From NCBI GenBank assembly GCA_964447735.1, contig CAYUTJ010000005.1, forward strand, positions 1 through 29,751: 29,751 bases of DNA, written 5' to 3'. The notes under the pieces are model-generated. The model saw only the letters and a list, made by a program, of their open reading frames with translations. It made no database searches and was not told the origin of the DNA. Position numbers and translations under genes: made by a program. Each line of letters opens with the position of its first letter. Position 1 is the first letter of the stretch. This DNA comes from an uncultured Candidatus Saccharibacteria bacterium. Lineage in GTDB: Bacteria > Patescibacteriota > Minisyncoccia > Minisyncoccales > GBS-2. This document shows positions 61 to 11,947 of the stretch, one piece after another.

Positions 61-783
61 CTATAAAATCTCCCAAAATAAAAAAAGAGGGGGAATCCCC
101 TGAAAGAAAGTTAAGGCTTCTTTTGTGATTTTTAGAAGGTTCTGAAAAGTTTTTTTTGAAATTTTTTCTCTTGCTCTTGAAAGATGAATGGTAACTAAAT
201 GTTCTTTCTTTGGGTCTTTTAAAAATCCTTGATCTACTTTGGAAATTACTTCTCTAAGGACAACTTTTTTCTCTTCCAAATTAAGTTTAAAGGTTTTCAC
301 AAAGAGGATGTTTTTCTCAATCTTTATAATCTCTCCGGGTCTAATTAAGCACTTTGTAATTTCTTGCAAAATTTTCTCTGTTAGAAATTGATTCTTTTTT
401 ATTAACCAAAGGGTTTCGAAGTTATGGTGAGGTTTTCCGTTAATCAATTCCAATAATTTTAATGCTGTTATTTTCTTGTGTGTTATTTCCTTTTTCAGTA
501 AAGTGAATGTTTTTATTTCTTCTTTAGTAACTCTCTTTAAGAATTCATTTCCTAACCAGTAAGCTCTGACTACTCTTTCATTGAAAGGGTCTGAAATTTT
601 GTTTTGATGAGCAATGAATTGATAAAAAAAGAAAGGTTCGAGTTTAATTAAAATCTCTCTTGCTTTTGGCGCTTTCTCAAATTGAGGCTCTTTGGCAAAC
701 TCCAAAATTGTCTTTTTTTCTTTTGCTTTTTTCAATTCTGGACAAGAAAAACTATACAAACAAGCAATTCTTAAACCTTCCAA
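61..783 (-). CDS. DUF6390-family protein (divergent)
   Basis: DPFNERVVRAYWLGNEFL, PHHNF, a C-x-I-R-x-G segment and a C-terminal LVTIH resemble DUF6390 as I recall it. The TTG start is supported by SD GAGGTG 7 nt upstream and an in-frame TGA just beyond. Confidence 0.65.
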   Translation of the reverse strand: MEGLRIACLYSFSCPELKKAKEKKTILEFAKEPQFEKAPKAREILIKLEPFFFYQFIAHQNKISDPFNERVVRAYWLGNEFLKRVTKEEIKTFTLLKKEITHKKITALKLLELINGKPHHNFETLWLIKKNQFLTEKILQEITKCLIRPGEIIKIEKNILFVKTFKLNLEEKKVVLREVISKVDQGFLKDPKKEHLVTIHLSRAREKISKKTFQNLLKITKEALTFFQGIPPLFLFWEIL

Positions 784-1343: not shown

Positions 1344-1365
1344 GACCTTTCATTTTTTAATTATA
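1344..1365 (-). promoter_or_regulatory. -10 TATAAT followed by AAAGGTC leader motif
   Basis: TATAAT at 1365-1360, then 9 nt, AAAGGTC at 1350-1344, then 17 nt to ATG 1326. No convincing -35. Confidence 0.45.
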
Positions 1366-1367
1366 AT

Positions 1368-1393
1368 AAAAGCCCCCACAAGGAAAGAGGGCT
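1368..1393 (-). terminator. probable intrinsic terminator after 1408..1671
   Basis: Minus strand AGCCCTC-tttccttgt-GGGGGCT (7-bp stem with one G-U pair) followed by TTTATT. Confidence 0.55.
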
Positions 1394-1407: not shown

Positions 1408-1671
1408 TTAAAGAGAATTTAAATCTTGATCTATTTCTTTAAATTCTTGATCTAAATTTCCAATATCTATACTCTCTATTTCCTTAAAAATGGTATCTGT
1501 CGAATCTTCCTTTCCAGGTCCTTTAGTTCTAGTTATCTCTTCTGAGACAGGAAGTGAAGAAGGTGTTGTTTTCTTGCTTTGCCAGTAAATCAAACCACCA
1601 ACAATTGAAACCAAAAGGATAATTACCACCAAAGCTATAACATTTGTTTTTGTTTGTGTTTTTTGCTCCAT
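1408..1671 (-). CDS. small single-TM hypothetical protein
   Basis: Hydrophobic stretch VIALVVIILLVSIVGGLIYW and an acidic C-terminus ESIDIGNLDQEFKEIDQDLNSL; 5 nt from the upstream gene. Confidence 0.75.
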   Translation of the reverse strand: MEQKTQTKTNVIALVVIILLVSIVGGLIYWQSKKTTPSSLPVSEEITRTKGPGKEDSTDTIFKEIESIDIGNLDQEFKEIDQDLNSL

Positions 1672-1676
1672 GTTTT

Positions 1677-2441
1677 TTATTCAATAGTTTGAGTGGGGGT
1701 GGCTTGTTGAGTTGTCGTTGTTGTTTGTTCTGTTGTTATCGGAACTTCGTATTCATTCACTCTCGGAATCTGAGCTAAAGCAACGGCTGCTTTGTGAACT
1801 AAATCCCTTGCCTTTTTAACTAATTTCTCAACTGCTTTCAAATCATCATGAAGAGCTTTTCTCAACTTCCCAACATCGGTTCTTAAATTCTCTTCTGTAG
1901 TAATTTGAGGAGGTTCGTAGACTTTTTCAGCTTGTTTTTCTACAGCCTCTTTTGCTTTCTCTATTGCCAAACGAGCTTCGTTAATTGCTGATTCTACTTG
2001 GCTAACATCTTTTCCGTGTAGTTTGGCTTTTGCAGTTCTACTTTCAATCTTTTCTAAAATCAATTCTAGACGATCTAAAACGTTTAAATAGTGATTGGTC
2101 ATTCTTTCATTTAAAGCATTCACCCTTTCATAAATTCTTTCAACAATCTTTTGTTTTGTTTGACTTATCCTCTCTTTCATTCTTTCTCTCAATTGTTGCT
2201 TGAAATCTTCAATCTTTGATTTTATTTTTTCTCTTCTTTCTTTAATTTTGTTTCTCAATTCAATCTGCTTTTGCAAAATTAAATTTTTAAATTCTTCTCT
2301 TTTTTTCCTGAATTCTTCAACTGAAATTTGCCTTTTCTCTCTAATTCTTTCCAAAATTGTATTTCTCCAAGGAGGAGCAGCTACAATTTGAGAGGTCAAA
2401 ACTAAGCTTAAAATCAAACCGACAATTATTTTCTTTCTCAT
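1677..2441 (-). CDS. secreted coiled-coil hypothetical protein with Thr-rich tail
   Basis: Signal peptide MRKKIIVGLILSLVLTSQIVAA, a long E/K/R heptad-rich helix and a TTEQTTTTTQQATPT tail. Confidence 0.8.
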   Translation of the reverse strand: MRKKIIVGLILSLVLTSQIVAAPPWRNTILERIREKRQISVEEFRKKREEFKNLILQKQIELRNKIKERREKIKSKIEDFKQQLRERMKERISQTKQKIVERIYERVNALNERMTNHYLNVLDRLELILEKIESRTAKAKLHGKDVSQVESAINEARLAIEKAKEAVEKQAEKVYEPPQITTEENLRTDVGKLRKALHDDLKAVEKLVKKARDLVHKAAVALAQIPRVNEYEVPITTEQTTTTTQQATPTQTIE

Positions 2442-2460
2442 ATTTCAAAAAAATATTTTT

Positions 2461-2470
2461 CGACCTTTAT
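2461..2470 (-). promoter_or_regulatory. ATAAAGGTCG leader motif
   Basis: AAAGGTC at 2468-2462, 20 nt before ATG 2441. Confidence 0.45.
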
Positions 2471-2476
2471 AATATT

Positions 2477-3319
2477 TTATCTTAACAAAACTATTGCTCC
2501 GTAACCAACAACCTGAATTTTTTCTCCATAGATTGTGTCTCCTGAATTTTGATATTTCAAGAGTTTGGCTTTTCCTTTCAAATTTTTCGAAATTTCCAAA
2601 ATTGTCTTTATTGAATCTTGAGCACAAGCTAGAGTATCGACTTGAAAGAATTTTTCTTTTAATTTTTCGATTTTTTCTTTGAAGATTTTTGGATCTGAAC
2701 TCAAAATGGCATCGATGGTTTCAGAATCTACTTTTTTTGCAATCTCATAAGGTGGATAATGAGATAAATCAGAAGAAACAACTATTAAAATTTTCTTTTC
2801 TCTCATCAATTTTAAAATCGAATTTGCCAAATTTTTCCAATCTTTGTCTTCAGAGCCAAAAATTATTGGTAAAATCTTAAACTCTTTCAAAACTTTTTGT
2901 AAAAAGGGCAATTGAACTTCTAAGGAATGTTCAAAAAGATGGGCAGAATCTCTGATAAAAAATCTTTTTGATTCTTTCAAAAGTTTTTCAGCTAGTTTTT
3001 CATCAATTTTTACTTTTCCTAAAGGAGTTTCCCAAAAGCCTCTTTCCCAAACAGACACTCCATCAAACCTTTCATAATGGGAATCTCCGATTAAAACTAC
3101 GCTCTCAAAATTTTTATTTTCGATTGCTTTGTAACAATGAGCGGCAACAAAGCCTGAAAAAATGTATCCTGCATGAGGAGCTATTATTCCAAAAATTTCT
3201 TCTTTGATTTTTGGAATTTTTGCTTCTTTCAAAAAATTCTCAATCATTCCTTCCAAATTATTCTTTTCTGCAGGATAGAATTGGCCAGCGACAGCTGGAA
3301 ACCTGATTTTTTCTTCCAT
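2477..3319 (-). CDS. amrB: AmmeMemoRadiSam system protein B (MEMO1 family)
   Basis: RFPAVAGQFYP, IAPHAGYIFSG, EHSLEVQLPFLQ, SSDLSHY, YQNSGD and VVGYGA. Confidence 0.92.
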   Translation of the reverse strand: MEEKIRFPAVAGQFYPAEKNNLEGMIENFLKEAKIPKIKEEIFGIIAPHAGYIFSGFVAAHCYKAIENKNFESVVLIGDSHYERFDGVSVWERGFWETPLGKVKIDEKLAEKLLKESKRFFIRDSAHLFEHSLEVQLPFLQKVLKEFKILPIIFGSEDKDWKNLANSILKLMREKKILIVVSSDLSHYPPYEIAKKVDSETIDAILSSDPKIFKEKIEKLKEKFFQVDTLACAQDSIKTILEISKNLKGKAKLLKYQNSGDTIYGEKIQVVGYGAIVLLR

Positions 3320-3320
3320 T

Positions 3321-3857
3321 TTACTCTATGCAACAATCAATTATTTTTTTCACTATTTCACCAAGTTTTGCCAGAAATCCGGTTTTCTTTTTATCATGAA
3401 CATTTAATTGGTTCTCTTCAATCTTTTTCACTTTTCCAATATCTATTAATTTTAAATTTATTCCCCAAAACAAAGACCAAAGTTGATAAGCTTTTGAAAA
3501 AAGATCATGTGCTTTTTCTTTTTTTCCTTGTGAATAATACTTTGTTCCAACCTCTATCAATCTCATTGAAGCAGCTAAAAGATGTTTTGAAATACACCAT
3601 TTCTCAGAACCTGGTTCGACATCCTTTACTAATTTTGCCAAAAGTTCTTTCCTCATTTTCCTTGTCTCATTCAATAAATCAAAATATTTTTCACTTCCTG
3701 TCTTTGCACCTGAAAAGAAAAAATGCTCTTCGATTGAAACTAAATTCATTATCGCTATTGATAAATCCTCATCAGAAGACAAATCTAACTTTCCTTTTTT
3801 TGACTTCTCAATTTTCTCGATTAGGTTTTGAATTTTTTCTTCCAATTTTTCTGCCAT
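3321..3857 (-). CDS. conserved-looking hypothetical helical protein ending in a vicinal Cys pair (DCCIE)
   Basis: DEDLSIAIMNLVSIEEHFFF, EKWCISKHLLAASMRLIEVG and C-terminal IIDCCIE. It sits in operon context (gaps of 1-3 nt). Confidence 0.8.
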   Translation of the reverse strand: MAEKLEEKIQNLIEKIEKSKKGKLDLSSDEDLSIAIMNLVSIEEHFFFSGAKTGSEKYFDLLNETRKMRKELLAKLVKDVEPGSEKWCISKHLLAASMRLIEVGTKYYSQGKKEKAHDLFSKAYQLWSLFWGINLKLIDIGKVKKIEENQLNVHDKKKTGFLAKLGEIVKKIIDCCIE

Positions 3858-3860
3858 AAT

Positions 3861-4394
3861 TTAACAAACTTTTAAGAAAATCAAACTTAATAATACCAAA
3901 ATAAAAAGAGGAATAACAACCTTTTGAAATTTGAAATAAACTTTTCCCTGATTTCTCTTTCTTAAATAAAAATCTAAAAAATAACCCATTAAAAGACCGA
4001 TAGATCCTGAAAATATCCCAAAAATTAATTTATCAATTCCTAAAAATTTGTTCTGAGGATGTCCCAAAATTCCTAACCAGTAAAATGGTAAAATTGCTAT
4101 CCCATACCAGAAAATAAATATCAAAGGCTTTCTTCCAAAAAACTTGATTTTTCTTTTATCTAATTCATCAATCGTCCAGATCACTAAAGAAATTAAAAAA
4201 CCTCCAATCCAAGTTCCAGAAATTAAATCATCGATACCGAGATATCTACATAATCCAACCCCGCTAGCAACTGCAACTGTACAAACCGGACAAAAAGCAA
4301 AAATAGAGAAAGGTAAAGAAAGTGTAATAAAAAAAATTTTCCCTATCATGAAAATCTTTTTAATCTTAACAAATTCTTTATTTTTTGAAAACAA
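3861..4394 (-). CDS. multi-TM hypothetical membrane protein with CPVC motif; true start may be ATG 4349
   Basis: FAFCPVCTVAV, LGIDDLISGTWIGG and about 4 hydrophobic segments. Confidence 0.8.
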   Translation of the reverse strand: MFSKNKEFVKIKKIFMIGKIFFITLSLPFSIFAFCPVCTVAVASGVGLCRYLGIDDLISGTWIGGFLISLVIWTIDELDKRKIKFFGRKPLIFIFWYGIAILPFYWLGILGHPQNKFLGIDKLIFGIFSGSIGLLMGYFLDFYLRKRNQGKVYFKFQKVVIPLFILVLLSLIFLKVC

Positions 4395-5139
4395 GAGAAA
4401 CTAAAAATATAAAAAAGTTAGCCAAAATGATTGTAGGACCTGCAGAGATATTAAAAATTTTGTAAAAGAAAATGCCAAAAAGAGAACTTAAAATACCAAA
4501 AAGGATTCCATAAAAAGAATACCAAAATAAATTCTTACTCAAATTTCTAGCAGAAGCTGCTGGAATTGCTACTAAAGCTGCTGTCAATAACCCCCCAACA
4601 ACTTTCACTCCTAAAGCAACAATAATGGCAATACAAAGCAAATATAAAAAATTATATTTTTTGACATCAATTTTTTCTGATTTTGCTAAATCCTCAGAAA
4701 TTGAAATTAAAACCATTTTTTTGTAAATAGATTTTGTCAACAAAAAAACAAAAAGACATAACAAAAAAGTAATTAAAGTATCTAGAAATTTCACTTTGGA
4801 AATATCCCCAATTAAAGCTTCTTCTGCTTTTTCAATCGGCAAAAATAAAAGAGAGATTGAAACACCGGTGGCAAAAACAATCGCAGTTAAAGCTTCCAAA
4901 GGTAACTTTGTTTTTCTTTCAAAAAGCCAAATTAAAAAAATTCCCAAAATGACAAAAGGAAAAGCTCCCAAAGAAACATCAAATCCAAAAATTAAAGCTA
5001 AAGTTATTCCTGGTAAAGTTAAATGTCCCAAAGGACCTGCAACCAAGGACATTCTTTTAGATAACATTAAAGTTCCCAAATAACCTGCTGTCGCCCCAAT
5101 AGAAACTCCACAAATTAAACTTAATAAAATTTGCTCCAT
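4378..5139 (-). CDS. metal ABC transporter permease (ZnuB/MntB, ABC-3 family)
   Basis: RMSLVAGPLGHLTLPG, SEDLAKSEKI (EAA-like loop), VGGLLTAALVAIPA, SAGPTIIL and multiple TM segments. Confidence 0.9.
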   Translation of the reverse strand: MEQILLSLICGVSIGATAGYLGTLMLSKRMSLVAGPLGHLTLPGITLALIFGFDVSLGAFPFVILGIFLIWLFERKTKLPLEALTAIVFATGVSISLLFLPIEKAEEALIGDISKVKFLDTLITFLLCLFVFLLTKSIYKKMVLISISEDLAKSEKIDVKKYNFLYLLCIAIIVALGVKVVGGLLTAALVAIPAASARNLSKNLFWYSFYGILFGILSSLFGIFFYKIFNISAGPTIILANFFIFLVSLVFKK

Positions 5140-5140
5140 A

Positions 5141-5833
5141 TTAGTGTTGGTGATAATGTTGATAAAACCTCAATTCTTGACCGTAAAGTTTTTGTAAATT
5201 TTCCAAAGTTAAAATTTCCTTTGGGCTTCCTTGACAAATTGGACATTTATTCAAACAAATTACATAGTTTGAAAATTTAAAGACAACGCTTAAATCATGA
5301 GTTACCAACAAAATGGTCAAATTTTTTTCTTTTTTTAATCTTTCCAAAAGTTTATAAATTGATTCTTGACCTGAAATGTCAATTCCTGACATTGGTTCAT
5401 CGAAAAGCAAAACTTCTGGATTTTTCAAAAGGGCAAAACCTACCAAAATTCTTTGGAATTGACCAGAAGATAAATTAGCAATTTTTTTATTTAAAAAATC
5501 ATCTGAAAATCCAATTGAATTCAAAATCTTTTTTATTTCTTTTTCTCTTTCTTCTTTCAATTTAAAAAACTCTTTAACTGACATTGGAAGAGTTTTTATA
5601 AAGGGTAATCTTTGAGGAACATAACCTACTTTTATTCCCTCTTTCCATTTAATTTCTCCTCTATAGGGAAGAATTCCCAAAAGAGTTTTTAACAAAACTG
5701 TTTTCCCTGCTCCGTTGGGTCCCAAAATTGTAATTGTGTCTCCTTCTTTAACTTTAAAAGATAAATTACAAATAATCTTTTCTCTGTCTAATTCAACAGT
5801 TAAGTTTTTAACTTCTAAAATTGTATCTTTCAT
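5141..5833 (-). CDS. metal ABC transporter ATP-binding protein (ZnuC/MntA-like)
   Basis: Walker A GPNGAGKT, GYVPQ, signature LSSGQ, Walker B LLFDEP, THDL and a His-rich end YQHYHQH. Confidence 0.92.
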   Translation of the reverse strand: MKDTILEVKNLTVELDREKIICNLSFKVKEGDTITILGPNGAGKTVLLKTLLGILPYRGEIKWKEGIKVGYVPQRLPFIKTLPMSVKEFFKLKEEREKEIKKILNSIGFSDDFLNKKIANLSSGQFQRILVGFALLKNPEVLLFDEPMSGIDISGQESIYKLLERLKKEKNLTILLVTHDLSVVFKFSNYVICLNKCPICQGSPKEILTLENLQKLYGQELRFYQHYHQH

Positions 5834-6105
5834 TTTTTTATTTTGATTGCTTTTCCCTCAATTAAAGCTTCAGCTACTTTTTTTCTCGCTGAATTCAAAA
5901 TTCTTTGAAGGGTGCTTTGCGAAATTCCCATTTTCTTTGCAGCACTAATTTGATTTAATCCTTTAAAATCACAAAGTCTCAGGGTTTCCAATTCATCTAC
6001 TGTTAATTCTATTTCCTCTAACATCGACAAAGGAATAGCTCTTGGTTTAAAATAAACAGCTTTGGGATCAAAATAGATTCTTCTTGGTTTTCTTGGTCTT
6101 GCCAT
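5830..6105 (-). CDS. DUF134 (UPF0251) predicted HTH DNA-binding protein
   Basis: MARPRKPRRI, YFKP, DELETLRLCD, AAKKMGISQSTLQRILNSARKKVAEALIEGKAI. Confidence 0.92.
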   Translation of the reverse strand: MARPRKPRRIYFDPKAVYFKPRAIPLSMLEEIELTVDELETLRLCDFKGLNQISAAKKMGISQSTLQRILNSARKKVAEALIEGKAIKIKK

Positions 6106-6107
6106 TT

Positions 6108-7181
6108 TTATTCTCTTCTCAAATGAATTTTACAATTAGGACAAATTAAAGTAGCACAAGGAACACCAGGTTGATGGATTATTTTATAGCCACATTTTGG
6201 ACAAACACAAAAGCCCCCAGGACCTAAACCTCGAGCTCCTCTAAATCTCCCTCTAAATCTCCCTCTTCTTCTCCAACCAAATCCTCTACCATAAATTGGC
6301 ATTCCAAAAACAGGAGCTGGACGATAAAAACTAGTTGTTGTTTCGTGACTTTTAATTTGAATTGCCACATAAACTAAATTGTCAATTTCTTTCATCAGTC
6401 TTTCTCTTAAATTTTCTGAGATTTTCGTTGCTTGATCTACATTCAAATTTTGGGGCAATTTTATTTCTAAATTAGCAGTGATTGCTGAGCCTTTCTTTTG
6501 AGTTTTCAAATTTGAAATTTCAACTCCTTGATTCTTTGCAATTTCTTTAATTTTATTTTCTATCTCAGGAGGAGCTGAAACATCAAGCAAAGAATCAACA
6601 GCTTCTTTTCCAATTGAAAAAGATTCTTTAATAATATAGAGACCAACCAAAAATGCTAAAATTGAATCTGTAAAAACCCAGAATTTATTCAAAATCAATC
6701 CCAAAAAAATTACCAAAGATGACAAAACATCGACTCTTGAATGAACCCCATCTGAAATTAAAGCAACTGAATTTTCCTTTTTACCAAAATGAATTTTCAA
6801 TCTTGACATTACTTCATTTAAAATTGCAGAAAATCCCATAATAGAGAGAGCTAAAATCGGAAGTTGAATTGGAGAGGGATTTTTAAATTTTTTCCACGAT
6901 TCATAAAGTATTAAAATTCCAGTTGTCAATAAAATTAAAGTGATGAAAAGTCCAGCTAAAACTTCAAATTTAAAATGACCGTAAGGATGCCTCTTGTCTG
7001 CTGGTTTTTTCGAAATTTTAATACCAACAAAAGAAATCAAAGAAGAAAAAATATCTCCTAAGGAATGAAAACCTTCTGCTAAAACAGCGGTTGATTTTGA
7101 AAAAATCCCCCCAAGAATTTTTGTTATTGCCAAGATAACATTTGCCAAAACTGAAATTAAAGCTACTTTTTCTTTATCCAT
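6108..7181 (-). CDS. cation diffusion facilitator (CDF) fused to a Gly/Arg-rich linker and a Cys-rich Zn-ribbon-like tail
   Basis: TM2 HSLGD, TM5 HSRVD, PADKRHPYGH, cytosolic dimerisation domain ending IQIK, then GRGFGWRRRGRFRG and GPGGFCVCPKCG..H..GVPC...CPNC. Confidence 0.9.
   Translation of the reverse strand: MDKEKVALISVLANVILAITKILGGIFSKSTAVLAEGFHSLGDIFSSLISFVGIKISKKPADKRHPYGHFKFEVLAGLFITLILLTTGILILYESWKKFKNPSPIQLPILALSIMGFSAILNEVMSRLKIHFGKKENSVALISDGVHSRVDVLSSLVIFLGLILNKFWVFTDSILAFLVGLYIIKESFSIGKEAVDSLLDVSAPPEIENKIKEIAKNQGVEISNLKTQKKGSAITANLEIKLPQNLNVDQATKISENLRERLMKEIDNLVYVAIQIKSHETTTSFYRPAPVFGMPIYGRGFGWRRRGRFRGRFRGARGLGPGGFCVCPKCGYKIIHQPGVPCATLICPNCKIHLRRE
6238..6266. repeat. 12-bp tandem duplication (cctctaaatctc x2 plus 5 nt) encoding RGRFRGRFRG
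   Basis: Direct reading of the sequence. Confidence 0.8.
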
Positions 7182-8037
7182 AAATTTTCTTTATAATTTT
7201 TTTAAAAAGCATACCATATTGAGGATTTAATTCAACTATAGGTCTTTTTTTTGTCAAAGAATCAATAAAATCTTGATTGAAAGGAATTTTTCCTAAAATT
7301 TTAATTTTGCTTTTTTTTGCAAATTTTTCTATTTTTTTTGTAAATTTTTTTGAAAGATTGAATTTATTGATCAAAATTCCATGAGGAATTTTAAAATGAT
7401 CTGCTAAATATAAAATTCTTTTTAGATCAAAAAGGGCAGAGGGTGTAGGTTCAGTTACTGCTATAATATAATCTGTTCCTACCAAAGAAGCAATTACCGG
7501 ACATCCAATTCCAGGGGCCGAATCTATAATTTCGATTTCAGAGTTCGTTCTTTTGGCTTCTTTTTGAGCAAATTTTCTCAATTCTTGAACAACTTCTCCT
7601 GAAGAAAGCTCTCCTAATTTAAGTTCACCTGAAACTAAATTAACTTTATAATTTTTGCCAATGTAAATTTTTCCGATTTCTTTTTTTGATTCTTTTATTG
7701 CGCCAAAGGGACAAGCAACAATGCAGGCTTTGCAACCTATGCAAAGATCTTTTATAAAAACTGGATATTTTCCTTTAACATAAACAATTGCATTTTGTTT
7801 GCAAACTTTGGCACATTCTCCACATTTTCTACATTTTCTACGATCGAATTTAGGAATGACCTGAAAAATCTTTCCTTTTAATTTTCTTTTGACAGAAAGT
7901 AAAATATGGGAGTTTGGACACTCTACATCACAATCTATCAAAAGAGTTCTTTTTTGTTTTGCAAACTCTATTGCTAAAGAAGTAGCTATTGTCGTTTTCC
8001 CAACTCCTCCTTTACCTCCTGTGACTGCAATTTTCAT
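7174..8037 (-). CDS. MinD-superfamily P-loop ATPase with inserted 2x[4Fe-4S] ferredoxin domain (COG1149-like); ATG 8037 preferred over TTG 8043
   Basis: GGKGGVGKTT, DCDVECPN, CRKCGECAKVC, CIGCKACIVACP, DSAPGIGCP and VTEPT. Confidence 0.9.
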   Translation of the reverse strand: MKIAVTGGKGGVGKTTIATSLAIEFAKQKRTLLIDCDVECPNSHILLSVKRKLKGKIFQVIPKFDRRKCRKCGECAKVCKQNAIVYVKGKYPVFIKDLCIGCKACIVACPFGAIKESKKEIGKIYIGKNYKVNLVSGELKLGELSSGEVVQELRKFAQKEAKRTNSEIEIIDSAPGIGCPVIASLVGTDYIIAVTEPTPSALFDLKRILYLADHFKIPHGILINKFNLSKKFTKKIEKFAKKSKIKILGKIPFNQDFIDSLTKKRPIVELNPQYGMLFKKIIKKIYG

Positions 8038-8039
8038 AT

Positions 8040-9698
8040 TCAACTTTTTTCTTTTTTATAAAAAGAATGAACGAAAATGGTTATCAGAGAAATTATGATC
8101 GCTAAAATTAAAATTGAAAAAGCGGTAAAAATACTTTCTAACAATTTTGGTTTAAAAATCAAAACAAATCCTAAAAATAAAATCATAAAGCCAGAAATTA
8201 ACTTTAATCTTCTAACCCAAATTTGACTAAAAGTTTTTCTTCCTAAAGTAATAGCAAAAATCAAAACAATGATAGCTAAAGGAATAACATAAACTAGATT
8301 GTAGAAAACCAAATAGAGATAATATTTAAAGGAAGGCAACTCTCTTAAGGTTAAAATTCTTGTATAAATCATCGGAAAACCGAAAGTGCACAATAATTCA
8401 TAAATGTTTACCGTAGCAGCAATAATTGCTGTCGTTCCAGTTAAAGCCAAAGTAGATTTAGCCAAACTCAAATTTTTCACTCTTTGGATAAATTTTTCTT
8501 TTTGACTTTTTGGTAAAGTTAAAGAAATTCCTTTTTGGAAATAAAAATAATCTTTTATATTGACAATACCGGCAAAAACGGCAATTAAACCAGCAATAAT
8601 AGTTAAAATGGTAATTTTTCCACCTAATTGAAAAACGTTAAGCAAAACTGACATAAACAAAAAGTAAAAAAGAGCAGAGAAAAATATAAAAATACTTCCT
8701 ACCAAAAGAATTTTTCTTCTTGCTCCAGCTAAACCAATTAAAGCAGCCAAAAGAAAAGTTAAAACAAAAAAAGCGCAAGGATTAAAACCGTCTGCCAATC
8801 CTAAGAGGAAGGTTAAAACTGGTAATGAAAATTTTTTAGTTTCTATTTCTCCTAAAAAAGGAATTTTAACTTTCTCTTCTTCAATCGGTCTTTCTGGTTT
8901 AGAAATTTCTCCACTAGGTTTTTCTGAAATGATTTCTTTTTTTGAAATTTTTATTTTTATTGCATTTTCAAAATCTGCTTTTCGAACATAATCTTTTTCT
9001 GAAAAAGAAAGACCGATTTTTTTCCAGATCGCAAAAAGTTCTTCTTTAGAAAAGGCAATAGCTCCCATTTTTAAAGATTGAGGATTAGTAATCTCAAAAT
9101 CTATTCCTTCAAGAGATTTTGCAATGTCAGAAGTAAAAAGTAATTCTTTTAATTTTCGAGAATCAGCTATTTTCTCACCTTTAATTTCTTGAGAAATTTT
9201 TTTGCCATTCCATTGAAAAAGCCAAAGATTTTCATCCAATTTAACTAAAACTCTTCCGTTTGCCCAAATTTTTGGAAAAGCTGGCAAATCACTTAAATTT
9301 AAATCTTCAAAATAAATTGACTCTTCCAATAAGGGACAGGGGTTTTCTTTGTCAATTCTATTTTCTGCTTTTGGAACATCGATTGAGCCTCCAAAGATTT
9401 TAATTTTATCAAAAACAAGTTTTGGAACTGAAGCTAGTGTTTTGTAATCTTGACAAAACTTTCCAAAAAATTTTGAATTTGGGTCGTTTAAATCTCCTCC
9501 CATCCACATATATTCGATCACTACCAAGTGAGGATATTTTTTTGTCCATTCTAATAAAACTTTAGGGTCAGTATAAGCGCAATTTGGACAACCAATGAAT
9601 GTAAAATAAAGAGTGCAAAAATAATCTTTAGCTAAAATCTTTTGAAGAGGAGAGAAAATAAAAATTAGTAAAAAACTGGCAAAAATTAACTTTTTCAT
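8040..9698 (-). CDS. exported thioredoxin/glutaredoxin-like domain fused to a DsbD/CcdA-like TM domain
   Basis: Signal peptide, YFTFIGCPNC (CxxC), and TM Cys motifs GLADGFNPCAF and YELLCTFGFP in a multi-TM C-terminal half. Confidence 0.75.
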   Translation of the reverse strand: MKKLIFASFLLIFIFSPLQKILAKDYFCTLYFTFIGCPNCAYTDPKVLLEWTKKYPHLVVIEYMWMGGDLNDPNSKFFGKFCQDYKTLASVPKLVFDKIKIFGGSIDVPKAENRIDKENPCPLLEESIYFEDLNLSDLPAFPKIWANGRVLVKLDENLWLFQWNGKKISQEIKGEKIADSRKLKELLFTSDIAKSLEGIDFEITNPQSLKMGAIAFSKEELFAIWKKIGLSFSEKDYVRKADFENAIKIKISKKEIISEKPSGEISKPERPIEEEKVKIPFLGEIETKKFSLPVLTFLLGLADGFNPCAFFVLTFLLAALIGLAGARRKILLVGSIFIFFSALFYFLFMSVLLNVFQLGGKITILTIIAGLIAVFAGIVNIKDYFYFQKGISLTLPKSQKEKFIQRVKNLSLAKSTLALTGTTAIIAATVNIYELLCTFGFPMIYTRILTLRELPSFKYYLYLVFYNLVYVIPLAIIVLIFAITLGRKTFSQIWVRRLKLISGFMILFLGFVLIFKPKLLESIFTAFSILILAIIISLITIFVHSFYKKEKS

Positions 9699-9707
9699 TT
9701 TTTTGAT

Positions 9708-10214
9708 TTACTCAGGTAGAATGGCTAAAGTATTGTTAAATCTGTTAATATAATTGAAAAGTCCCATCACTGAAATAATCTCTATAATTTGGGGCTCTGA
9801 AAATTTTTCTCTTAATTTATCAAAAAGTTGAGGATTATCTAAGTGTCCATCTAAAGTTACATCCTTTATCAATTCTAATACTTCTTTCTCTTCTCCTTTC
9901 AATTCTTTAATTTCTTTTATAATTTCATCTGTTGCTCCAAATTTTTTTAACATTTTTGTGGTTACGTCAACACAGAAAGGACATTTTAATGTTTCAGAAA
10001 CTACTAAAGCAATTTTCCATTTCAACAAAGAATCTATGGTACCTTTTCCCATAATGACTTTAAAAAGTTCTACAAATTCCTTCAAAATCTCTGGTCTATG
10101 AGCCATTACCTTTACCCATTCTGGAACTTTTCCAGTATCTTTTTTGAATTTCTCGTAAATTTCTTTAGCAATTTCCTCTACTTGATCTTCTTTTAAAGAA
10201 GAAATCAAAGCCAT
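9708..10214 (-). CDS. carboxymuconolactone decarboxylase/AhpD-like protein with CxxC
   Basis: GKVPEWVKVMAHRPEIL, IALVVSETLKCPFC and EIISVMGLFNYINRFN. Confidence 0.85.
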   Translation of the reverse strand: MALISSLKEDQVEEIAKEIYEKFKKDTGKVPEWVKVMAHRPEILKEFVELFKVIMGKGTIDSLLKWKIALVVSETLKCPFCVDVTTKMLKKFGATDEIIKEIKELKGEEKEVLELIKDVTLDGHLDNPQLFDKLREKFSEPQIIEIISVMGLFNYINRFNNTLAILPE

Positions 10215-10231
10215 GTTAAAATCTTTTTGAA

Positions 10232-10276
10232 GACCTTTATATTTTAAAATATATCCTCTTTTTTAATTTCTTTCAA
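10232..10276 (-). promoter_or_regulatory. internal promoter TTGAAA-N17-TATATT plus AAAGGTC leader motif
   Basis: -35 at 10276-10271, -10 at 10253-10248, then 9 nt, AAAGGTC at 10238-10232, then 17 nt to ATG 10214. Confidence 0.55.
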
Positions 10277-10579
10277 TTCGTTATTTTCAAATTTTTGAAT
10301 GTTATCTTTTATCTTTTCTTTTGTAGCTTTATACATTTTAATTTTATAATTTTTAAATTTCTGATATGCTCTCTCCCCCAAACCAAAAGTGACAACAGCA
10401 TCTACTTTATGACGATACAAAAAATCTGGGGGAAGTTCTTTCCCTTTTAATTCAGGATTTTCGAAAACTTCAAAGGTCTTTTTTTCGGTATCATAAATCA
10501 AAAAATTCTTTGCTCTCCCAAAATGGAAAGCTATTTTGTCTTCTAAATTATCTCCATCTGTAGCAAAAGCAATTTTCAT
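10244..10579 (-). CDS. NifB/NifX (COG1433) FeMo-cofactor-binding-like protein
   Basis: MKIAFAT, HFGRAKNFLIYD, VDAVVTFGLGERA and IKMY. Confidence 0.9.
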   Translation of the reverse strand: MKIAFATDGDNLEDKIAFHFGRAKNFLIYDTEKKTFEVFENPELKGKELPPDFLYRHKVDAVVTFGLGERAYQKFKNYKIKMYKATKEKIKDNIQKFENNELKEIKKEDIF

Positions 10580-10917
10580 TTTTCAAATTTTTCTAATTTT
10601 TGTTCAATAAATTTTTCTAAAGCTTCCTTCACTGTTCCTTCTCCCTGATAAATTTTAATGCCAAACTGACTTAAAACATCAAAAGCTCTCGGTCCAATAT
10701 TTTTACAAATCACAGCCTCTATTCTTCTTTCAGCTAAAAATTGAGAAACTGAAATTCCAGCTCCTCCCATTTGATTTGCAAATTCATTCTCTATTGCTTC
10801 AAAATTTTTAATTTCTCCTTCCTCAATCTCAGCAAAGATAAAATAAGGACACCTAGCAAATACTTCACTCAAATTAGAATCTAAATTTTTTCCAGTTGAA
10901 CTTAAAGCAACTTTCAT
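10576..10917 (-). CDS. NifB/NifX (COG1433) FeMo-cofactor-binding-like protein
   Basis: MKVALSS, FARCPYF, GGAGI, EAVICKNIGPRA and GIKIY. Confidence 0.9.
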   Translation of the reverse strand: MKVALSSTGKNLDSNLSEVFARCPYFIFAEIEEGEIKNFEAIENEFANQMGGAGISVSQFLAERRIEAVICKNIGPRAFDVLSQFGIKIYQGEGTVKEALEKFIEQKLEKFEK

Positions 10918-11147
10918 TTTTTCTTTTCTAACTCTTTTAATCTTTCTTCAATTGCTTCCATTTCTTCTTTTAAACTTTCTAATTCTTCCTTCAACATCTT
11001 CTTTTCCTCTTCAGGAGTCATTTTTTCCCAATATTCAGGAAAAGCCCACCAACCTCTTGGTAACCAAGGAAACCTCCAACATCTCCACCAATATCTTCTA
11101 AATTCTGGATAGGCCCACCAAGGACCGCCTCCCATTCCCCAAGGCAT
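10914..11147 (-). CDS. DUF5320-like small protein (Gly/Trp/Pro-rich N-terminus plus acidic coiled coil)
   Basis: MPWGMGGGPWW, RCWRFPWLPRGWW and EEEKKMLKEELESLKEEMEAIEERLKELE. Confidence 0.75.
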   Translation of the reverse strand: MPWGMGGGPWWAYPEFRRYWWRCWRFPWLPRGWWAFPEYWEKMTPEEEKKMLKEELESLKEEMEAIEERLKELEKKK

Positions 11148-11167
11148 GATTTTTAAAAAAATTAAAG

Positions 11168-11212
11168 CGACCTTTATATTTTGAATATATACCCAAAATA
11201 GTACCTTGTCAA
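11168..11212 (-). promoter_or_regulatory. sigma70 promoter TTGACA-N17-TATATT with AAAGGTCG leader motif
   Basis: -35 at 11212-11207, -10 at 11189-11184, AAAGGTCG at 11175-11168, ATG at 11147. Confidence 0.8.
11177..11200. promoter_or_regulatory. 24-bp imperfect palindrome, candidate operator
   Basis: TATTTTG-AA-TATATA-CC-CAAAATA; 20 of 24 positions are self-complementary; it covers the -10 box. Confidence 0.55.
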
Positions 11213-11224
11213 GTAAAGAAAAAA

Positions 11225-11716
11225 TTAATTTTTATCTATAAATCTTCCATTATCTCGCGTTTTTGCAAGTTTCGAAATTTTTCTTTTAAGCCAACCGATC
11301 TTATTAGTTTTTCTTACATCAAATTCTGGTACATAGGGTTTAATATCTAAGAGAGGGGTTTTGTCTACTATATCTATTCCACTCACATAAAGAAAGTTTT
11401 TCTTCCTTTTTTCTAATTTTACTATTGATATTCCAATAGGATTTGGTCGAGAAGGAGCTCTGGTAGCAAAAATTCCATGTGATTTTTTATCCATGTAAGG
11501 CTTGACTACTAATCTTTGTTTTTTAATTAAATGAAAATGATAAATTAAAATAAGATAGGAAAAACCTTCAATATCCTTTAATCCTCGAGAATATTTCGAA
11601 AAAACTTCTACTATTCCTTTAGTATTTTTTGCTCCCAAAGATTGTATTGGAGTTCCTTGAACTTTTTTAAAGGGAGAATGAACAATTCCTATTGGTTCAT
11701 ATTTTATTTGTTTCAT
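11225..11716 (-). CDS. trmO: tRNA (t6A37)-N6-methyltransferase TrmO/TsaA, short single-domain form
   Basis: PIGIVHSPF, LIYHFH, GIFATRAPSRPNPIGIS and TPLLDIKPY. Confidence 0.92.
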   Translation of the reverse strand: MKQIKYEPIGIVHSPFKKVQGTPIQSLGAKNTKGIVEVFSKYSRGLKDIEGFSYLILIYHFHLIKKQRLVVKPYMDKKSHGIFATRAPSRPNPIGISIVKLEKRKKNFLYVSGIDIVDKTPLLDIKPYVPEFDVRKTNKIGWLKRKISKLAKTRDNGRFIDKN

Positions 11717-11734: not shown

Positions 11735-11947
11735 TTATCTACCAAGAGAACAGAGGGGGCAACTATTTTCCCTAAAATCTTTTCCTTTTTTTGAAATTTC
11801 TGGCCTGTATTCTTCGCATTCTTGATGACAAAAAGGACATTCTGCTACTAATTTCCATTGTTTCCCAAAGATTGAACTTTCCCATTCTTTTTTCTTCCCT
11901 TTGGCTTTAAAAATTTTTTGACAATTTTTACAATAAAATTTTTCCAT
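11735..11947 (-). CDS. small Cys-rich (3x CxxC) Zn-ribbon-like hypothetical protein
   Basis: CKNC, CPFC and CPLC in 70 aa; K/E-rich composition like the real genes. Confidence 0.7.
   Translation of the reverse strand: MEKFYCKNCQKIFKAKGKKKEWESSIFGKQWKLVAECPFCHQECEEYRPEISKKGKDFRENSCPLCSLGR

What the first reader, a model, noticed from the sequence alone, without database searches (positions are those of the whole stretch)
1408..11212. About 9.7 kb uncharacterised metal/thiol operon (DUF5320, 2x NifX, AhpD-like, Trx-DsbD, Fe-S ATPase, CDF, DUF134, ABC pair, two Cys proteins, MEMO1)
Seen: 15 co-oriented genes with gaps of at most 35 nt, running from a consensus promoter (11212) to a terminator (1393). 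Most products carry Cys/His ligand motifs. Established: DUF134, NifX-like, DUF5320 and COG1149 genes co-occur in anaerobic bacteria and archaea without a known function, and human MEMO1 binds Cu/Fe. Inference: one system couples metal import (ABC), export (CDF), trans-membrane thiol reduction and ATP-dependent metallocluster handling, possibly serving the adjacent hydrogenase. This is the best candidate for an undescribed system here.
Basis: partly seen in the sequence, partly recalled or inferred. Interest (0 to 1): 0.75.

Follow-up and report, generated by a model that had tools for sequence, protein, structure and literature searches.

The report
Composite metal and thiol gene block
The 15 genes are real, but they are two separately conserved gene sets and some passengers packed together in a very compact genome; the first set sits behind a DNA palindrome, found in both bacteria and archaea, that looks like the binding site of the uncharacterised DUF134 regulator.

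Summary
Tight co-orientation means little here, because 35 of 36 genes in the window lie on one strand.

Synteny splits the block in three.
- **g1-g10:** a variant of the Desulfovibrio orange-protein (ORP) cluster, with DUF5320, two MTH1175/ORP-type NifX-like proteins and a COG1149 Fe-S ATPase. It also has a CDF exporter with a six-Cys tail, DUF134 and a ZnuBC-like ABC pair. AhpD-like and Trx/CcdA-like genes are inserted.
- **g11-g12 and g14-g15:** a separate module, widespread in CPR bacteria.
- **Memo:** part of the AmmeMemoRadiSam system.

The main new result is a palindrome, ATGRRTATATAYYCAT, overlapping the -10 of the g1 promoter. It recurs upstream of DUF5320/DUF134 operons in CPR bacteria and DPANN archaea. 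A gene-blind metagenome scan for it found core genes within 2 kb in 62 of 80 loci.

I read DUF134 as a metal- or cluster-responsive repressor of a metal-transport and metallocluster-carrier regulon; this is inferred, not shown.

The hydrogenase link is not supported: 0 of 34 related loci have one nearby.

The parts
11184..11212 (-). Sigma-70-like promoter, TTGACA-17-TATATT
   Evidence: 11 of 12 positions, the best match in 14 kb. It lies in the 77-nt gap between TrmO and g1.
11179..11198 (.). Palindromic operator candidate (core TTGGGTATATATTCAA, 11181-11196) overlapping the -10 hexamer
   Evidence: It is the only site in the window. The same motif lies at a median of 50 nt upstream of DUF5320/DUF134 operons in CPR and DPANN loci. 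In a gene-blind scan, 62 of 80 metagenome hits lie next to core genes.
11168..11175 (-). AAAGGTCG box, 21 nt before the g1 ATG (probable transcript-start or leader box)
10914..11147 (-). g1: DUF5320 protein, 77 aa, with a Trp-rich N-terminus and a coiled-coil C-terminus
   Evidence: PF17253, 32.9 bits, profile positions 37-99 only. It is the first gene after the palindrome in 32 of the 55 operator-gene pairs scored in the metagenome loci.
10576..10917 (-). g2: NifX-like protein of the MTH1175/ORP type (Nitro_FeMo-Co), 113 aa
   Evidence: 1eo1 E 4e-26; orange protein 2wfb E 1.8e-7.
10244..10579 (-). g3: second NifX-like protein, 111 aa, with no cysteine
10232..10238 (-). AAAGGTC box, 17 nt before the g4 ATG (candidate internal start)
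   Evidence: The same box precedes the AhpD homologue in L010.
9708..10214 (-). g4: AhpD/CMD 'peroxidase-related' protein with a CPFC motif, 168 aa; a lineage-specific insert
   Evidence: It accompanies the core in only 1 of 34 related loci.
8040..9698 (-). g5: 552-aa fusion of signal peptide, thioredoxin-fold domain (CPNC), beta-rich domain and polytopic membrane domain with two invariant cysteines (NPC308, C437-T-x-G-x-P)
   Evidence: No Pfam or NCBIfam hit.
7174..8043 (-). g6: COG1149-type MinD/ParA P-loop ATPase with an inserted 2x[4Fe-4S] ferredoxin domain (Orp3/Orp4-like)
   Evidence: It was the anchor for the 34 related loci.
6108..7181 (-). g7: CDF exporter with HxxxD (TM2) and HxxxD (TM5) at the transport site
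   Evidence: YiiP/FieF 8f6k E 8e-31.
6111..6245 (-). C-terminal six-Cys plus His module of g7 (GPGGFCVCPKCGYKIIHQPGVPCATLICPNCKIHLRRE), behind an Arg/Gly-rich linker
   Evidence: The same module is fused to DUF134 or to ferredoxin, or stands alone, in other loci. More than 4,400 protein clusters match it and none has a Pfam family.
5830..6105 (-). g8: DUF134 helix-turn-helix protein (sigma-70 region-4-like), the candidate binder of the operator
5141..5833 (-). g9: ZnuC-like ABC ATPase
4378..5139 (-). g10: ABC-3 (ZnuB/MntB-like) permease; the block encodes no substrate-binding protein
3861..4394 (-). g11: small polytopic membrane protein with a conserved CPVC motif (probable start at 4349); module 2
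3321..3857 (-). g12: highly conserved 178-aa helical protein of CPR bacteria with an invariant C-terminal CC; module 2
2477..3319 (-). g13: Memo / AmmeMemoRadiSam system protein B; a passenger
2461..2468 (-). AAAGGTCG box, 20 nt before the g14 ATG (candidate internal start)
   Evidence: The same box precedes g14 homologues in L010, L047 and L050.
1677..2441 (-). g14: secreted coiled-coil protein, 254 aa; module 2
1408..1671 (-). g15: small single-pass membrane protein, 87 aa; module 2
1362..1393 (-). Terminator-like hairpin (7 bp, 9-nt loop) followed by a U-run

Best explanation
The block is a composite of three parts.

**Part 1, g1-g10.** This is a CPR/DPANN variant of the anaerobe ORP-type cluster.
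- It has two MTH1175/orange-protein-type metallocluster-binding proteins and a MinD-like ATPase carrying two [4Fe-4S] clusters.
- It also has DUF5320, a CDF metal exporter and a ZnuBC-like ABC transporter. A thioredoxin/CcdA-like membrane thiol protein and an AhpD-like protein are inserted.
- It begins at a sigma-70-like promoter whose -10 is embedded in a 16-20 bp palindrome.

Inferred mechanism for part 1:
- DUF134, the only helix-turn-helix protein of the set, binds the palindrome and occludes the promoter.
- A metal or Fe-S signal is sensed through the six-Cys module. That module is fused to DUF134 in many archaea. Here it is attached to the cytoplasmic end of the CDF, which is encoded immediately upstream of DUF134.
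- The regulon balances Fe/Zn import and export and moves metal-sulfur clusters between carriers with ATP. The membrane thiol protein keeps extracytoplasmic cysteines reduced.

**Part 2, g11, g12, g14 and g15.** This is an independent, widespread CPR module. Elsewhere it also includes a secreted glutaredoxin-like CPHC protein. It usually follows a metal transporter, either ABC-3 or a Cu P-type ATPase. Its function is unknown, probably envelope thiol or metal handling.

**Part 3, Memo.** It belongs to the AmmeMemoRadiSam system.

**Shown:** gene content, synteny statistics, the operator motif and its association with DUF134 operons.
**Inferred:** who binds the operator, the signal, the metals, and the direction of ABC transport.
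For: **Synteny**
- In 34 loci anchored on the ATPase, genes within 6 kb are: NifX 30, DUF134 23, CDF 16, g5 membrane domain 9, ABC 5, and DUF5320 7 (14 of 35 loci, source contig included, by clustering).
- The order NifX-NifX-ATPase-CDF-DUF134 is kept in 9 bacterial loci and is permuted in archaeal ones.

**Operator**
- The palindrome (up to 2 mismatches) gives 29 hits in 470 kb, against 5.7 +/- 2.7 in shuffles.
- About 21 of the 29 lie within 300 nt upstream of DUF5320, NifX or DUF134 genes.
- There are 0 hits in 13 loci that lack the core.
- The motif tracks DUF134 presence: 19 of 24 loci against 1 of 11, Fisher p = 1.5e-4.
- In the gene-blind metagenome scan, 62 of 80 loci have a core gene within 2 kb. 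The motif sits at a median of 50 nt upstream of operons starting with DUF5320 (32) or DUF134 (18).
- Genes next to the operator in those loci include the g5 family (12 loci), NifX (8), ZIP (4), ABC-3 (3), CDF, FeoB and thioredoxin.

**Six-Cys module**
- It is present in 23 proteins of 22 of 35 loci. It is fused to CDF, DUF134 or ferredoxin, or stands free.

**Module 2**
- The order ABC - ABC-3 - [Grx-like] - g11 - g12 - g14 - g15 occurs in L047, L048 and L050. In L049 the trio follows CsoR and a Cu-ATPase.

**Internal start boxes**
- They lie before g4 and g14.

**ORP literature**
- PMC6345978 covers the composition of the complex and Fe-S transfer to it. PMC8359166 shows expression only at low redox potential.
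Against: - No binding, expression or metal data exist.
- The operator-DUF134 association is not corrected for phylogeny. DUF5320, which is nearly always the first gene after the motif, could be the binder instead.
- The palindrome's TATATA centre is itself a -10 or TATA element, so part of its conservation may reflect promoter function.
- The window site matches only the inner 14 bp.
- g5's closest orthologues are unlinked to the core and have no operator. Only distant family members are linked.
- The similarity of g5's membrane domain to CcdA is weak: Foldseek probability 0.63, TM-score 0.46, and no Pfam hit.
- The ABC pair lacks a binding protein, so its substrate and direction are unknown.
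- In Desulfovibrio the ORP complex was linked to cell morphology, not metal trafficking.
Confidence: 0.6

Rival explanations
1. One reading: one 15-gene operon encodes a single integrated system that couples metal import, export, trans-membrane thiol reduction and ATP-dependent cluster handling, possibly to mature the adjacent NiFe hydrogenase.
For: - Junctions are tight, with one strong promoter and one terminator-like hairpin.
- L018 holds nearly the same set: core, ABC, Grx-like, g11 and g12.
- A NiFe hydrogenase lies 1.4 kb downstream on the source contig. The module-2 relative L047 also has one nearby.
Against: - The whole window is equally compact and co-oriented.
- g4, g11, g12 and g14 each accompany the core in only 1 of 34 loci. 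Memo and g15 never lie within 6 kb of it.
- Module 2 exists without the core or the operator.
- Internal start boxes lie before g4 and g14.
- A hydrogenase accompanies the core in 0 of 34 loci.
- Memo is fused to AMMECR1 in L010.
Confidence: 0.1
2. The ORP-like core (NifX-like proteins plus the MinD-type Fe-S ATPase) acts in cell division or septum positioning, as proposed for Desulfovibrio. The neighbouring transporters are unrelated.
For: - g6 is a MinD/ParA-family ATPase.
- The literature describes the Desulfovibrio ORP complex as putatively involved in cell division, and MrpORP localises to the cell pole there (PMC6345978, PMC8359166).
Against: - Across bacteria and archaea the operator-marked operons are filled with metal transporters and thiol proteins: CDF, ABC-3, ZIP, FeoB, the g5 family and thioredoxin. 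No division genes appear among them.
- The CDF carries the same six-Cys module that is fused to DUF134 elsewhere.
- No division genes lie in the block.
Confidence: 0.15
3. The juxtaposition is incidental. Apart from the NifX-ATPase pair, the genes are unrelated housekeeping functions packed together by genome streamlining. The palindrome is just a strong promoter element inherited with DUF5320.
For: - The genome is compact.
- The centre of the palindrome is a -10/TATA sequence.
- Many related loci have different neighbours, and some carry insertions: a restriction-modification system and Fic in L013, a transposase in L022.
Against: - The specific flanks ATGRR...YYCAT are conserved between CPR bacteria and DPANN archaea, and they predict DUF134/DUF5320 operons in a gene-blind scan.
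- The ABC pair is found on either side of ATPase-CDF-DUF134 in different lineages, so linkage survives rearrangement.
- The six-Cys module forms fusions with three different partners within the same neighbourhoods.
Confidence: 0.12

Closest known systems
ORP (orange protein) complex and orp operons of Desulfovibrio vulgaris Hildenborough / D. alaskensis G20 (PMC6345978, PMC8359166)
   Same: - Both have a COG1149 MinD-like ATPase with two [4Fe-4S] motifs (Orp3/Orp4) and a small Nitro_FeMo-Co protein of the orange-protein/MTH1175 family (Orp8).
- Both include a small Cys-rich component, occur in anaerobes, and have an unresolved function.
   Different: - The window has one ATPase, not two, and two NifX-like genes.
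- It has no MrpORP fusion, no sigma-54 promoter and no OrpR activator.
- Instead it has a sigma-70-like promoter with a palindromic operator and a DUF134 helix-turn-helix protein, plus DUF5320, a CDF with a six-Cys tail, and an ABC-3 pair in the same string.
- The carriers are CPR bacteria and DPANN archaea.
DsbD/CcdA-ScsB/ScsC thiol-disulfide electron-transfer systems
   Same: - g5 has an extracytoplasmic thioredoxin-fold domain with CxxC. Its profile hits ScsC/DsbA-like 6nen, 6mhh and 4xvw at E about 0.003.
- It also has a polytopic membrane domain with two invariant cysteines next to prolines.
- CcdA (5vkv) is the best membrane-protein fold match by probability.
   Different: - There is no Pfam DsbD or DsbD_2 hit, and the fold match is not significant.
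- The domain order differs: Trx-like domain first, then a beta-rich domain, then about 8 helices.
- The family of more than 1,300 clusters is unannotated.
Bacterial zinc/iron homeostasis sets (ZnuABC or MntABC importer, CDF exporter such as YiiP/FieF or CzcD, under a metal-sensing repressor)
   Same: - It has a ZnuC/ZnuB-like pair and a YiiP-like CDF with an H-D/H-D transport site.
- These sit next to a small DNA-binding protein and behind an operator that overlaps the -10.
   Different: - The block has no ZnuA-type binding protein.
- The regulator is DUF134, not a Fur, Zur, MntR or ArsR family member.
- Importer and exporter lie in one string together with metallocluster carriers.
AmmeMemoRadiSam system (TIGR04336 and partner models)
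   Same: g13 scores 269 bits on the protein B (Memo) model.
   Different: The window holds no AMMECR1 or dedicated radical SAM partner. In relative L010, Memo is fused to AMMECR1 and lies 4 kb away from the core.

Membership tests
ORP (orange protein) cluster | MinD/ParA-type ATPase with two [4Fe-4S] ferredoxin motifs (Orp3/Orp4, COG1149) | tested here: met
   g6: CbiA/ParA plus Fer4 families, with four CxxC motifs at residues 71-107. There is one copy here; more distant loci have two in tandem.
ORP (orange protein) cluster | Small single-domain Nitro_FeMo-Co protein of the orange-protein type (Orp8) | tested here: met
   g2 and g3: PF02579 at 82 and 70 bits. g2 matches 2wfb (ORP) at E 1.8e-7 and is closer to MTH1175 1eo1 at E 4e-26.
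ORP (orange protein) cluster | MrpORP (Orp9): Mrp/NBP35 domain fused to a Di-Nase domain | tested here: not met
   The NF041136 model gives only domain-level hits of 36-59 bits against a cut-off of 450. The block has no such fusion. A plain Mrp/ApbC gene lies in relative L018.
ORP (orange protein) cluster | Sigma-54 promoter and an OrpR enhancer-binding activator | tested here: not met
   No AAA+ or sigma-54 activator domain appears in any block or flanking product. The promoter is sigma-70-like. I did not scan formally for -24/-12 elements.
ORP (orange protein) cluster | Small Cys-rich [2Fe-2S]-binding protein (Orp5 homologue) | not tested
   The six-Cys module on the CDF tail may be the counterpart, but no Orp5/Dde_3197 sequence was available to compare.
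ORP (orange protein) cluster | Physical complex, and a Mo-Cu or Fe-S cluster on the NifX-like protein | not testable with these tools
   This needs anaerobic purification and spectroscopy.
Cation diffusion facilitator (CDF) | Cation_efflux membrane domain, cytoplasmic ZT_dimer domain, and TM2/TM5 metal-site quartet | tested here: met
   PF01545 at 164 bits, PF16916 at 35 bits, TIGR01297 at 242 bits. HSLGD and HSRVD align to site A of YiiP.
ABC-3 / cluster-9 metal ABC importer (ZnuABC, MntABC) | ATPase, ABC-3 permease and a ZnuA/PsaA-type substrate-binding protein | tested here: not met
   The ATPase (ZnuC model, 172 bits, below its cut-off of 306) and the permease (PF00950, 146 bits) are present. 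No product of the block hits a binding-protein family.
DsbD/CcdA thiol-disulfide transporter | Two conserved membrane cysteines in Pro-containing motifs, and a thioredoxin-fold partner | tested here: inconclusive
   C308 (NPC), C437 (CTxGxP) and CPNC are invariant in 42 homologues. ScsC-like profile hit at E 0.003. CcdA fold match: probability 0.63, TM 0.46, E 0.56. No Pfam hit even at E <= 1.
DUF134 (PF02001) | Match to the family profile, including the region-4-like helix-turn-helix | tested here: met
   97.8 bits against a cut-off of 27, plus Sigma70_r4/HTH sub-hits.
DUF5320 (PF17253) | Full-length match (Gly/Arg-rich N-terminus plus coiled coil) | tested here: inconclusive
   32.9 bits against a cut-off of 27, covering profile positions 37-99 only. 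The N-terminus here is Trp-rich, whereas relatives have MPRGDGTGP....
AmmeMemoRadiSam system | Memo (B) together with AMMECR1 (A) and a radical SAM partner | tested here: not met
   B is present (TIGR04336, 269 bits). No A or dedicated radical SAM gene lies in the block. A Memo-AMMECR1 fusion is seen in L010.

The most novel reading that the evidence does not exclude
DUF134 is a cross-domain (CPR bacteria, DPANN and other anaerobic archaea) metal- or Fe-S-sensing repressor. It binds the palindrome ATGRRTATATAYYCAT placed over the -10 or TATA element. Its sensor is the unannotated six-Cys/His module. Where that module sits on the tail of the CDF exporter, as here, the transporter and the transcription factor communicate directly. 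The regulon (DUF5320, ORP-type carriers, CDF, ABC-3/ZIP/FeoB, Trx-CcdA-like protein) would then be a previously unrecognised metal and cluster homeostasis circuit of reduced-genome anaerobes.
Probability: 0.3. Interest if true: 0.75.

Novelty: new variant of a known kind. Interest (0 to 1): 0.58.

Why it matters
- **An experimental handle on old unknowns.** The DUF134 / DUF5320 / NifX-like / COG1149 neighbourhood is one of the most widespread 'conserved hypothetical' clusters of anaerobes. Even the studied Desulfovibrio ORP complex has no settled function. A defined operator, a candidate regulator and a regulon rich in metal transporters make the question testable by EMSA, reporter assays and RNA-seq.
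- **A culturable carrier exists.** Minisyncoccus archaeiphilus carries the core cluster and the operator.
- **Metal and Fe-S economy in CPR and DPANN.** The result bears on how these ultra-small organisms manage metals and Fe-S clusters with minimal biogenesis machinery; the window holds only an IscS-IscU pair.
- **Two large unannotated families.** The scan also flags the g5 Trx/CcdA-like family (more than 1,300 clusters) and the g12 family (more than 7,800 clusters).

Tried and rejected
- **Neighbourhoods of close g5 orthologues (64%, 54%, 53% and 45% identity):** none holds a gene of the block. g5 is therefore not an obligate partner.
- **Fold search of the g5 model (pLDDT 82):** nothing at E <= 0.001, only weak thioredoxin and CcdA matches.
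- **g12 model:** low confidence (pLDDT 63.5), a generic helical bundle with no informative fold match. PDB sequence searches for g11 and g12 gave no meaningful match.
- **Pfam and NCBIfam at E <= 1** for the six-Cys tail, both halves of g5 and the Grx-like protein: only sub-threshold zinc-ribbon or glutaredoxin hits.
- **Hydrogenase and IscSU co-occurrence with the core:** none in 34 loci.
- **Rfam:** only a tRNA fragment at the window edge.
- **Plasmid collection:** no match.
- **Literature on DUF134, DUF5320, COG1149 and MTH1175:** no functional study in the held library beyond the ORP papers. Fievet 2011 (PMC3133258) is not held.
- **First collection scan with the 16-mer IUPAC pattern:** I widened the pattern to 20 nt.
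- **Further operator copies in the window:** none up to 2 mismatches. One 3-mismatch hit at 3757-3772 lies inside g12, and I regard it as chance.

Full report
**1. What is in the sequence**

The interval 1408-11212 holds 15 minus-strand ORFs, which I call g1 to g15.

| Gene | Coordinates | Identity |
|---|---|---|
| g1 | 10914-11147 | DUF5320 |
| g2, g3 | 10576-10917, 10244-10579 | Nitro_FeMo-Co (NifX-like) |
| g4 | 9708-10214 | CMD/AhpD |
| g5 | 8040-9698 | 552 aa, no family hit |
| g6 | 7174-8043 | CbiA/ParA ATPase with two 4Fe-4S motifs |
| g7 | 6108-7181 | CDF |
| g8 | 5830-6105 | DUF134 |
| g9 | 5141-5833 | ZnuC-like ABC ATPase |
| g10 | 4378-5139 | ABC-3 permease |
| g11 | 3861-4394 | membrane protein, no hit |
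| g12 | 3321-3857 | no hit |
| g13 | 2477-3319 | Memo |
| g14, g15 | 1677-2441, 1408-1671 | no hit |

- The family assignments come from Pfam and NCBIfam.
- All junctions are overlaps or gaps of at most 35 nt.
- TTGACA-17-TATATT at 11212..11184 is the best sigma-70-like site in 14 kb.
- A 7-bp hairpin with a U-run follows g15; its energy is -11.4 kcal/mol and its z-score -1.4.

**2. Is the arrangement more than background?**

No.
- The whole 29.7-kb window has 35 of 36 genes on the minus strand with the same overlaps and tiny gaps. These include TyrRS, tRNA-modification enzymes, IscS/IscU, NrdD/NrdG, enolase and thioredoxin reductase.
- Promoter-like sites are no more frequent than in shuffles.
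- Co-orientation and tight spacing therefore cannot show that the 15 genes form one unit.
- A conserved box, (T/A)ATAAAGGTC, lies 17-21 nt upstream of the start codon and just downstream of a -10-like hexamer. On the minus strand of the window it occurs in exactly four intergenic gaps: before g1, before g4, before g14, and before the adenosine-kinase-like gene that follows the hairpin.
- The same box precedes the homologues of g14 (L010, L047, L050), the homologue of g4 (L010), and other first genes in CPR loci.
- I read it as a transcript-start-proximal element. If so, the block has internal starts, giving units g1-g3, g4-g13 and g14-g15. This is an inference from sequence only.

**3. Source and hydrogenase**

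- The window comes from a 73.9-kb metagenome contig (L001). Its gene content is that of a Patescibacteria (CPR) genome: MurB, an archaeal-type MAT and ApgM.
- Past the window edge the contig encodes DUF6390 and then the small and large subunits of a NiFe hydrogenase. A hydrogenase is therefore nearby, but outside the window.
- None of the 34 related loci that carry the core cluster has a hydrogenase within 10 kb. Only the source contig and one close module-2 relative (L047) do.

**4. Synteny test**

I scanned one genome per species for relatives of the g6 ATPase. This gave 34 usable loci from Parcubacteria, Magasanikbacteria, the cultured Minisyncoccus archaeiphilus, and Woese-, Aenigm-, Micr-, Iain- and Nanoarchaeota.

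A tblastn search with all window proteins gave these counts within 6 kb of the ATPase:

| Gene family | Loci of 34 |
|---|---|
| NifX-like | 30 |
| DUF134 | 23 |
| CDF | 16 |
| Homologue of the g5 membrane half | 9 |
| DUF5320 | 7 (14 of 35 loci, source contig included, by clustering) |
| ABC ATPase | 5 |
| ABC-3 permease | 4 |
| AhpD, g11, g12, g14 | 1 each |
| Memo, g15 | 0 |

- The order NifX-NifX-ATPase-CDF-DUF134 is kept in nine bacterial loci.
- Archaeal loci show DUF134-CDF-NifX-NifX-ATPase.
- The ABC pair sits either directly upstream of the ATPase (L011, L029) or directly downstream of DUF134 (L016, L018, and the window). Linkage therefore survives rearrangement.

**5. The unknown gene g5**

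- Its family has more than 1,300 clusters, all 'hypothetical' and without Pfam domains, in Patescibacteria and DPANN archaea.
- In 42 homologues the invariant positions include C37-x-N-C40, D303/N306/P307/C308 and C437/T438/G440/P442.
- A profile search of PDB sequences hits ScsC/DsbA-like proteins over the CxxC domain at E about 0.003.
- An AlphaFold model (pLDDT 82) has a thioredoxin fold, a beta-rich domain and a helical membrane domain.
- Foldseek finds nothing significant. The best matches are thioredoxins and, among membrane proteins by probability, the electron transporter CcdA.
- The 'Trx-DsbD' reading is thus plausible but unproven.
- Close orthologues (45-64% identity) lie in unrelated neighbourhoods. 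More distant family members lie next to the core in many loci. Examples are L019 and L020, directly after the ATPase, and L017, preceded by a WCPGC thioredoxin.

**6. A mobile six-Cys module**

- The last 45 residues of the CDF (GPGGFCVCPKCGYKIIHQPGVPCATLICPNCKIHLRRE) recur in 23 proteins of 22 of the 35 loci (34 related loci plus the source contig).
- They appear as the CDF tail, as a C-terminal extension of DUF134 (L019, L026, L027, L034, L036, L038), fused to a ferredoxin (L043), or alone as a 70-aa protein (L041).
- A profile of the module finds more than 4,400 protein clusters. Most are free 45-80-aa hypothetical proteins of archaea and CPR bacteria, and there is no Pfam or NCBIfam family.
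- The fusions argue that the module works with DUF134.
- From memory, not tested here: Desulfovibrio Orp5 is described as a homologue of a small [2Fe-2S] protein. PMC6345978 says as much, but I could not compare the sequences.

**7. The operator**

- Upstream regions of the DUF5320 genes share a palindrome. In CPR loci it reads TTATGGGTATATA(T/C)TCATAAT. In archaeal loci it is the perfect AATGAATATATATTCATT, sometimes in two copies.
- In the window it lies at 11181-11196, over the -10 hexamer, and it is the only copy.
- With up to two mismatches there are 29 sites in the 470 kb of core loci, against 5.7 +/- 2.7 in shuffles. About 21 of these sit within 300 nt upstream of DUF5320, NifX or DUF134 genes.
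- There are none in the 13 loci that lack the core, including the module-2 loci.
- Motif presence tracks DUF134 presence: 19 of 24 loci against 1 of 11, p = 1.5e-4, not corrected for phylogeny.
- As an independent test I scanned the metagenome collection for the 20-nt degenerate palindrome, without reference to genes.
  - In 62 of the 80 loci read, a core-family gene lies within 2 kb. Most of the remaining loci have the motif at a contig end.
  - The motif lies at a median of 50 nt upstream of an operon that starts with DUF5320 (32 cases) or DUF134 (18 cases).
  - Other genes in those operons are the g5 family (12 loci), NifX (8), ZIP (4), ABC and ABC-3, CDF, FeoB, a YibE/F-like membrane protein and thioredoxin.
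- The palindrome is therefore the hallmark of DUF134/DUF5320 operons, and their cargo is dominated by metal transporters and thiol or cluster proteins.
- DUF134 is the only protein of the set with a DNA-binding fold, so it is the likely binder. This is an inference.

**8. The second module**

- g12 belongs to a very conserved CPR family, with more than 7,800 clusters at 70-88% identity and no annotation.
- Around its homologues the order is ABC ATPase - ABC-3 permease - a secreted glutaredoxin-like CPHC protein of about 128 aa - g11 - g12 - g14 - g15 (L047, L048, L050).
- In L049 the trio of Grx-like protein, g11 and g12 follows CsoR and a copper P-type ATPase.
- These loci have neither the core nor the operator.
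- In the window the Grx-like gene is missing. L018 shows that it belongs to the same family as the N-terminal domain of g5.
- Models and searches for g11 and g12 were uninformative.
- Memo scores as AmmeMemoRadiSam protein B. In L010 it is fused to an AMMECR1 domain, recognisable by its LRGCIG motif.

**9. Comparison with known systems**

- The core matches the ORP cluster of Desulfovibrio in two respects: the COG1149 ATPase and the orange-protein-type NifX-like proteins (PMC6345978).
- It lacks MrpORP and the sigma-54/OrpR control. It adds DUF134, DUF5320, a CDF and ABC-3.
- ORP operons are expressed only at low redox potential, and their function is still described as putative (PMC8359166).
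- The CDF is YiiP-like, with an H-D/H-D site A. From general knowledge of CDFs this favours Zn(II), and possibly Fe or Co.
- The ABC pair lacks a binding protein.

**10. Verdict**

- g1-g10 form a plausible functional set: a new variant of the ORP-type cluster under a conserved operator, with DUF134 as the likely regulator.
- g11-g15 and Memo are separate.
- The hydrogenase link is unsupported.

Noticed in passing
window 11168-11175, 10232-10238, 2461-2468, 1344-1350 (minus strand); also L010, L011, L013, L047, L049, L050: A box, (T/A)ATAAAGGTC(G/A), recurs 17-21 nt upstream of start codons, just after -10-like hexamers, in the larger intergenic gaps of these CPR genomes. It is probably a transcript-start or leader element. 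It is too far from the ATG to be a Shine-Dalgarno site.
   Followed up: partly
L004 11665-12417, L005 4743-5495, L008 11644-13256; L011 1993-3819; L029 4467-6309: Close g5 orthologues are followed by a family-4 uracil-DNA glycosylase and, in L008, by a metallo-beta-lactamase-fold gene as well. The string Trx-FTR fusion, MBL, UDG also sits inside the core neighbourhood in L011 and L029. I cannot explain this recurrent association.
   Followed up: no
window 11225-11716 (TrmO/TsaA); L020 8055-8498, L023 about 13110-13538, L037 7573-8043: A TrmO/TsaA-family gene lies next to the COG1149 ATPase cluster in the window and in three archaeal loci, 4 of 35 in all.
   Followed up: no
window 11735-11947; L050 4438-4656: A 70-aa protein with four Cys pairs (CxxC ... 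CPFC ... CPLC) lies two genes upstream of the block. Its homologue in L050 sits directly upstream of the ABC pair of module 2.
   Followed up: no
L022 8135-9388 (Minisyncoccus archaeiphilus PMX.108 chromosome): A transposase-like ORF of 417 aa on the opposite strand separates the two NifX-like genes in the cultured CPR bacterium. The operator is still present upstream of the first NifX gene (7467-7482).
   Followed up: partly
window 61-783; L001 18916-21659; L047 13665-14552: DUF6390 (sub-threshold HypC-like hit) directly precedes the small subunit of a NiFe hydrogenase both in the source contig and in L047. This looks like a conserved pair, possibly a maturation factor.
   Followed up: partly
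L018 13718-14470 and 16260-18191: In the locus most similar to the window in overall content, an Mrp/ApbC Fe-S carrier ATPase and FeoB flank the Grx-like, g11 and g12 genes. This hints at iron.
   Followed up: no
L013 12310-14627 and 15629-16522: Methyltransferase- and restriction-like ORFs and a Fic-domain gene are inserted between DUF134, the ABC ATPase and the permease in Parcubacteria GBS-2.
   Followed up: no
window 3321-3857 (g12): In a predicted four-helix bundle, the invariant residues include E43-E44-H45, E85, C88, H92, E102 and the C-terminal C175-C176. This may be a metal site. The family is among the most conserved unannotated CPR proteins.
   Followed up: partly
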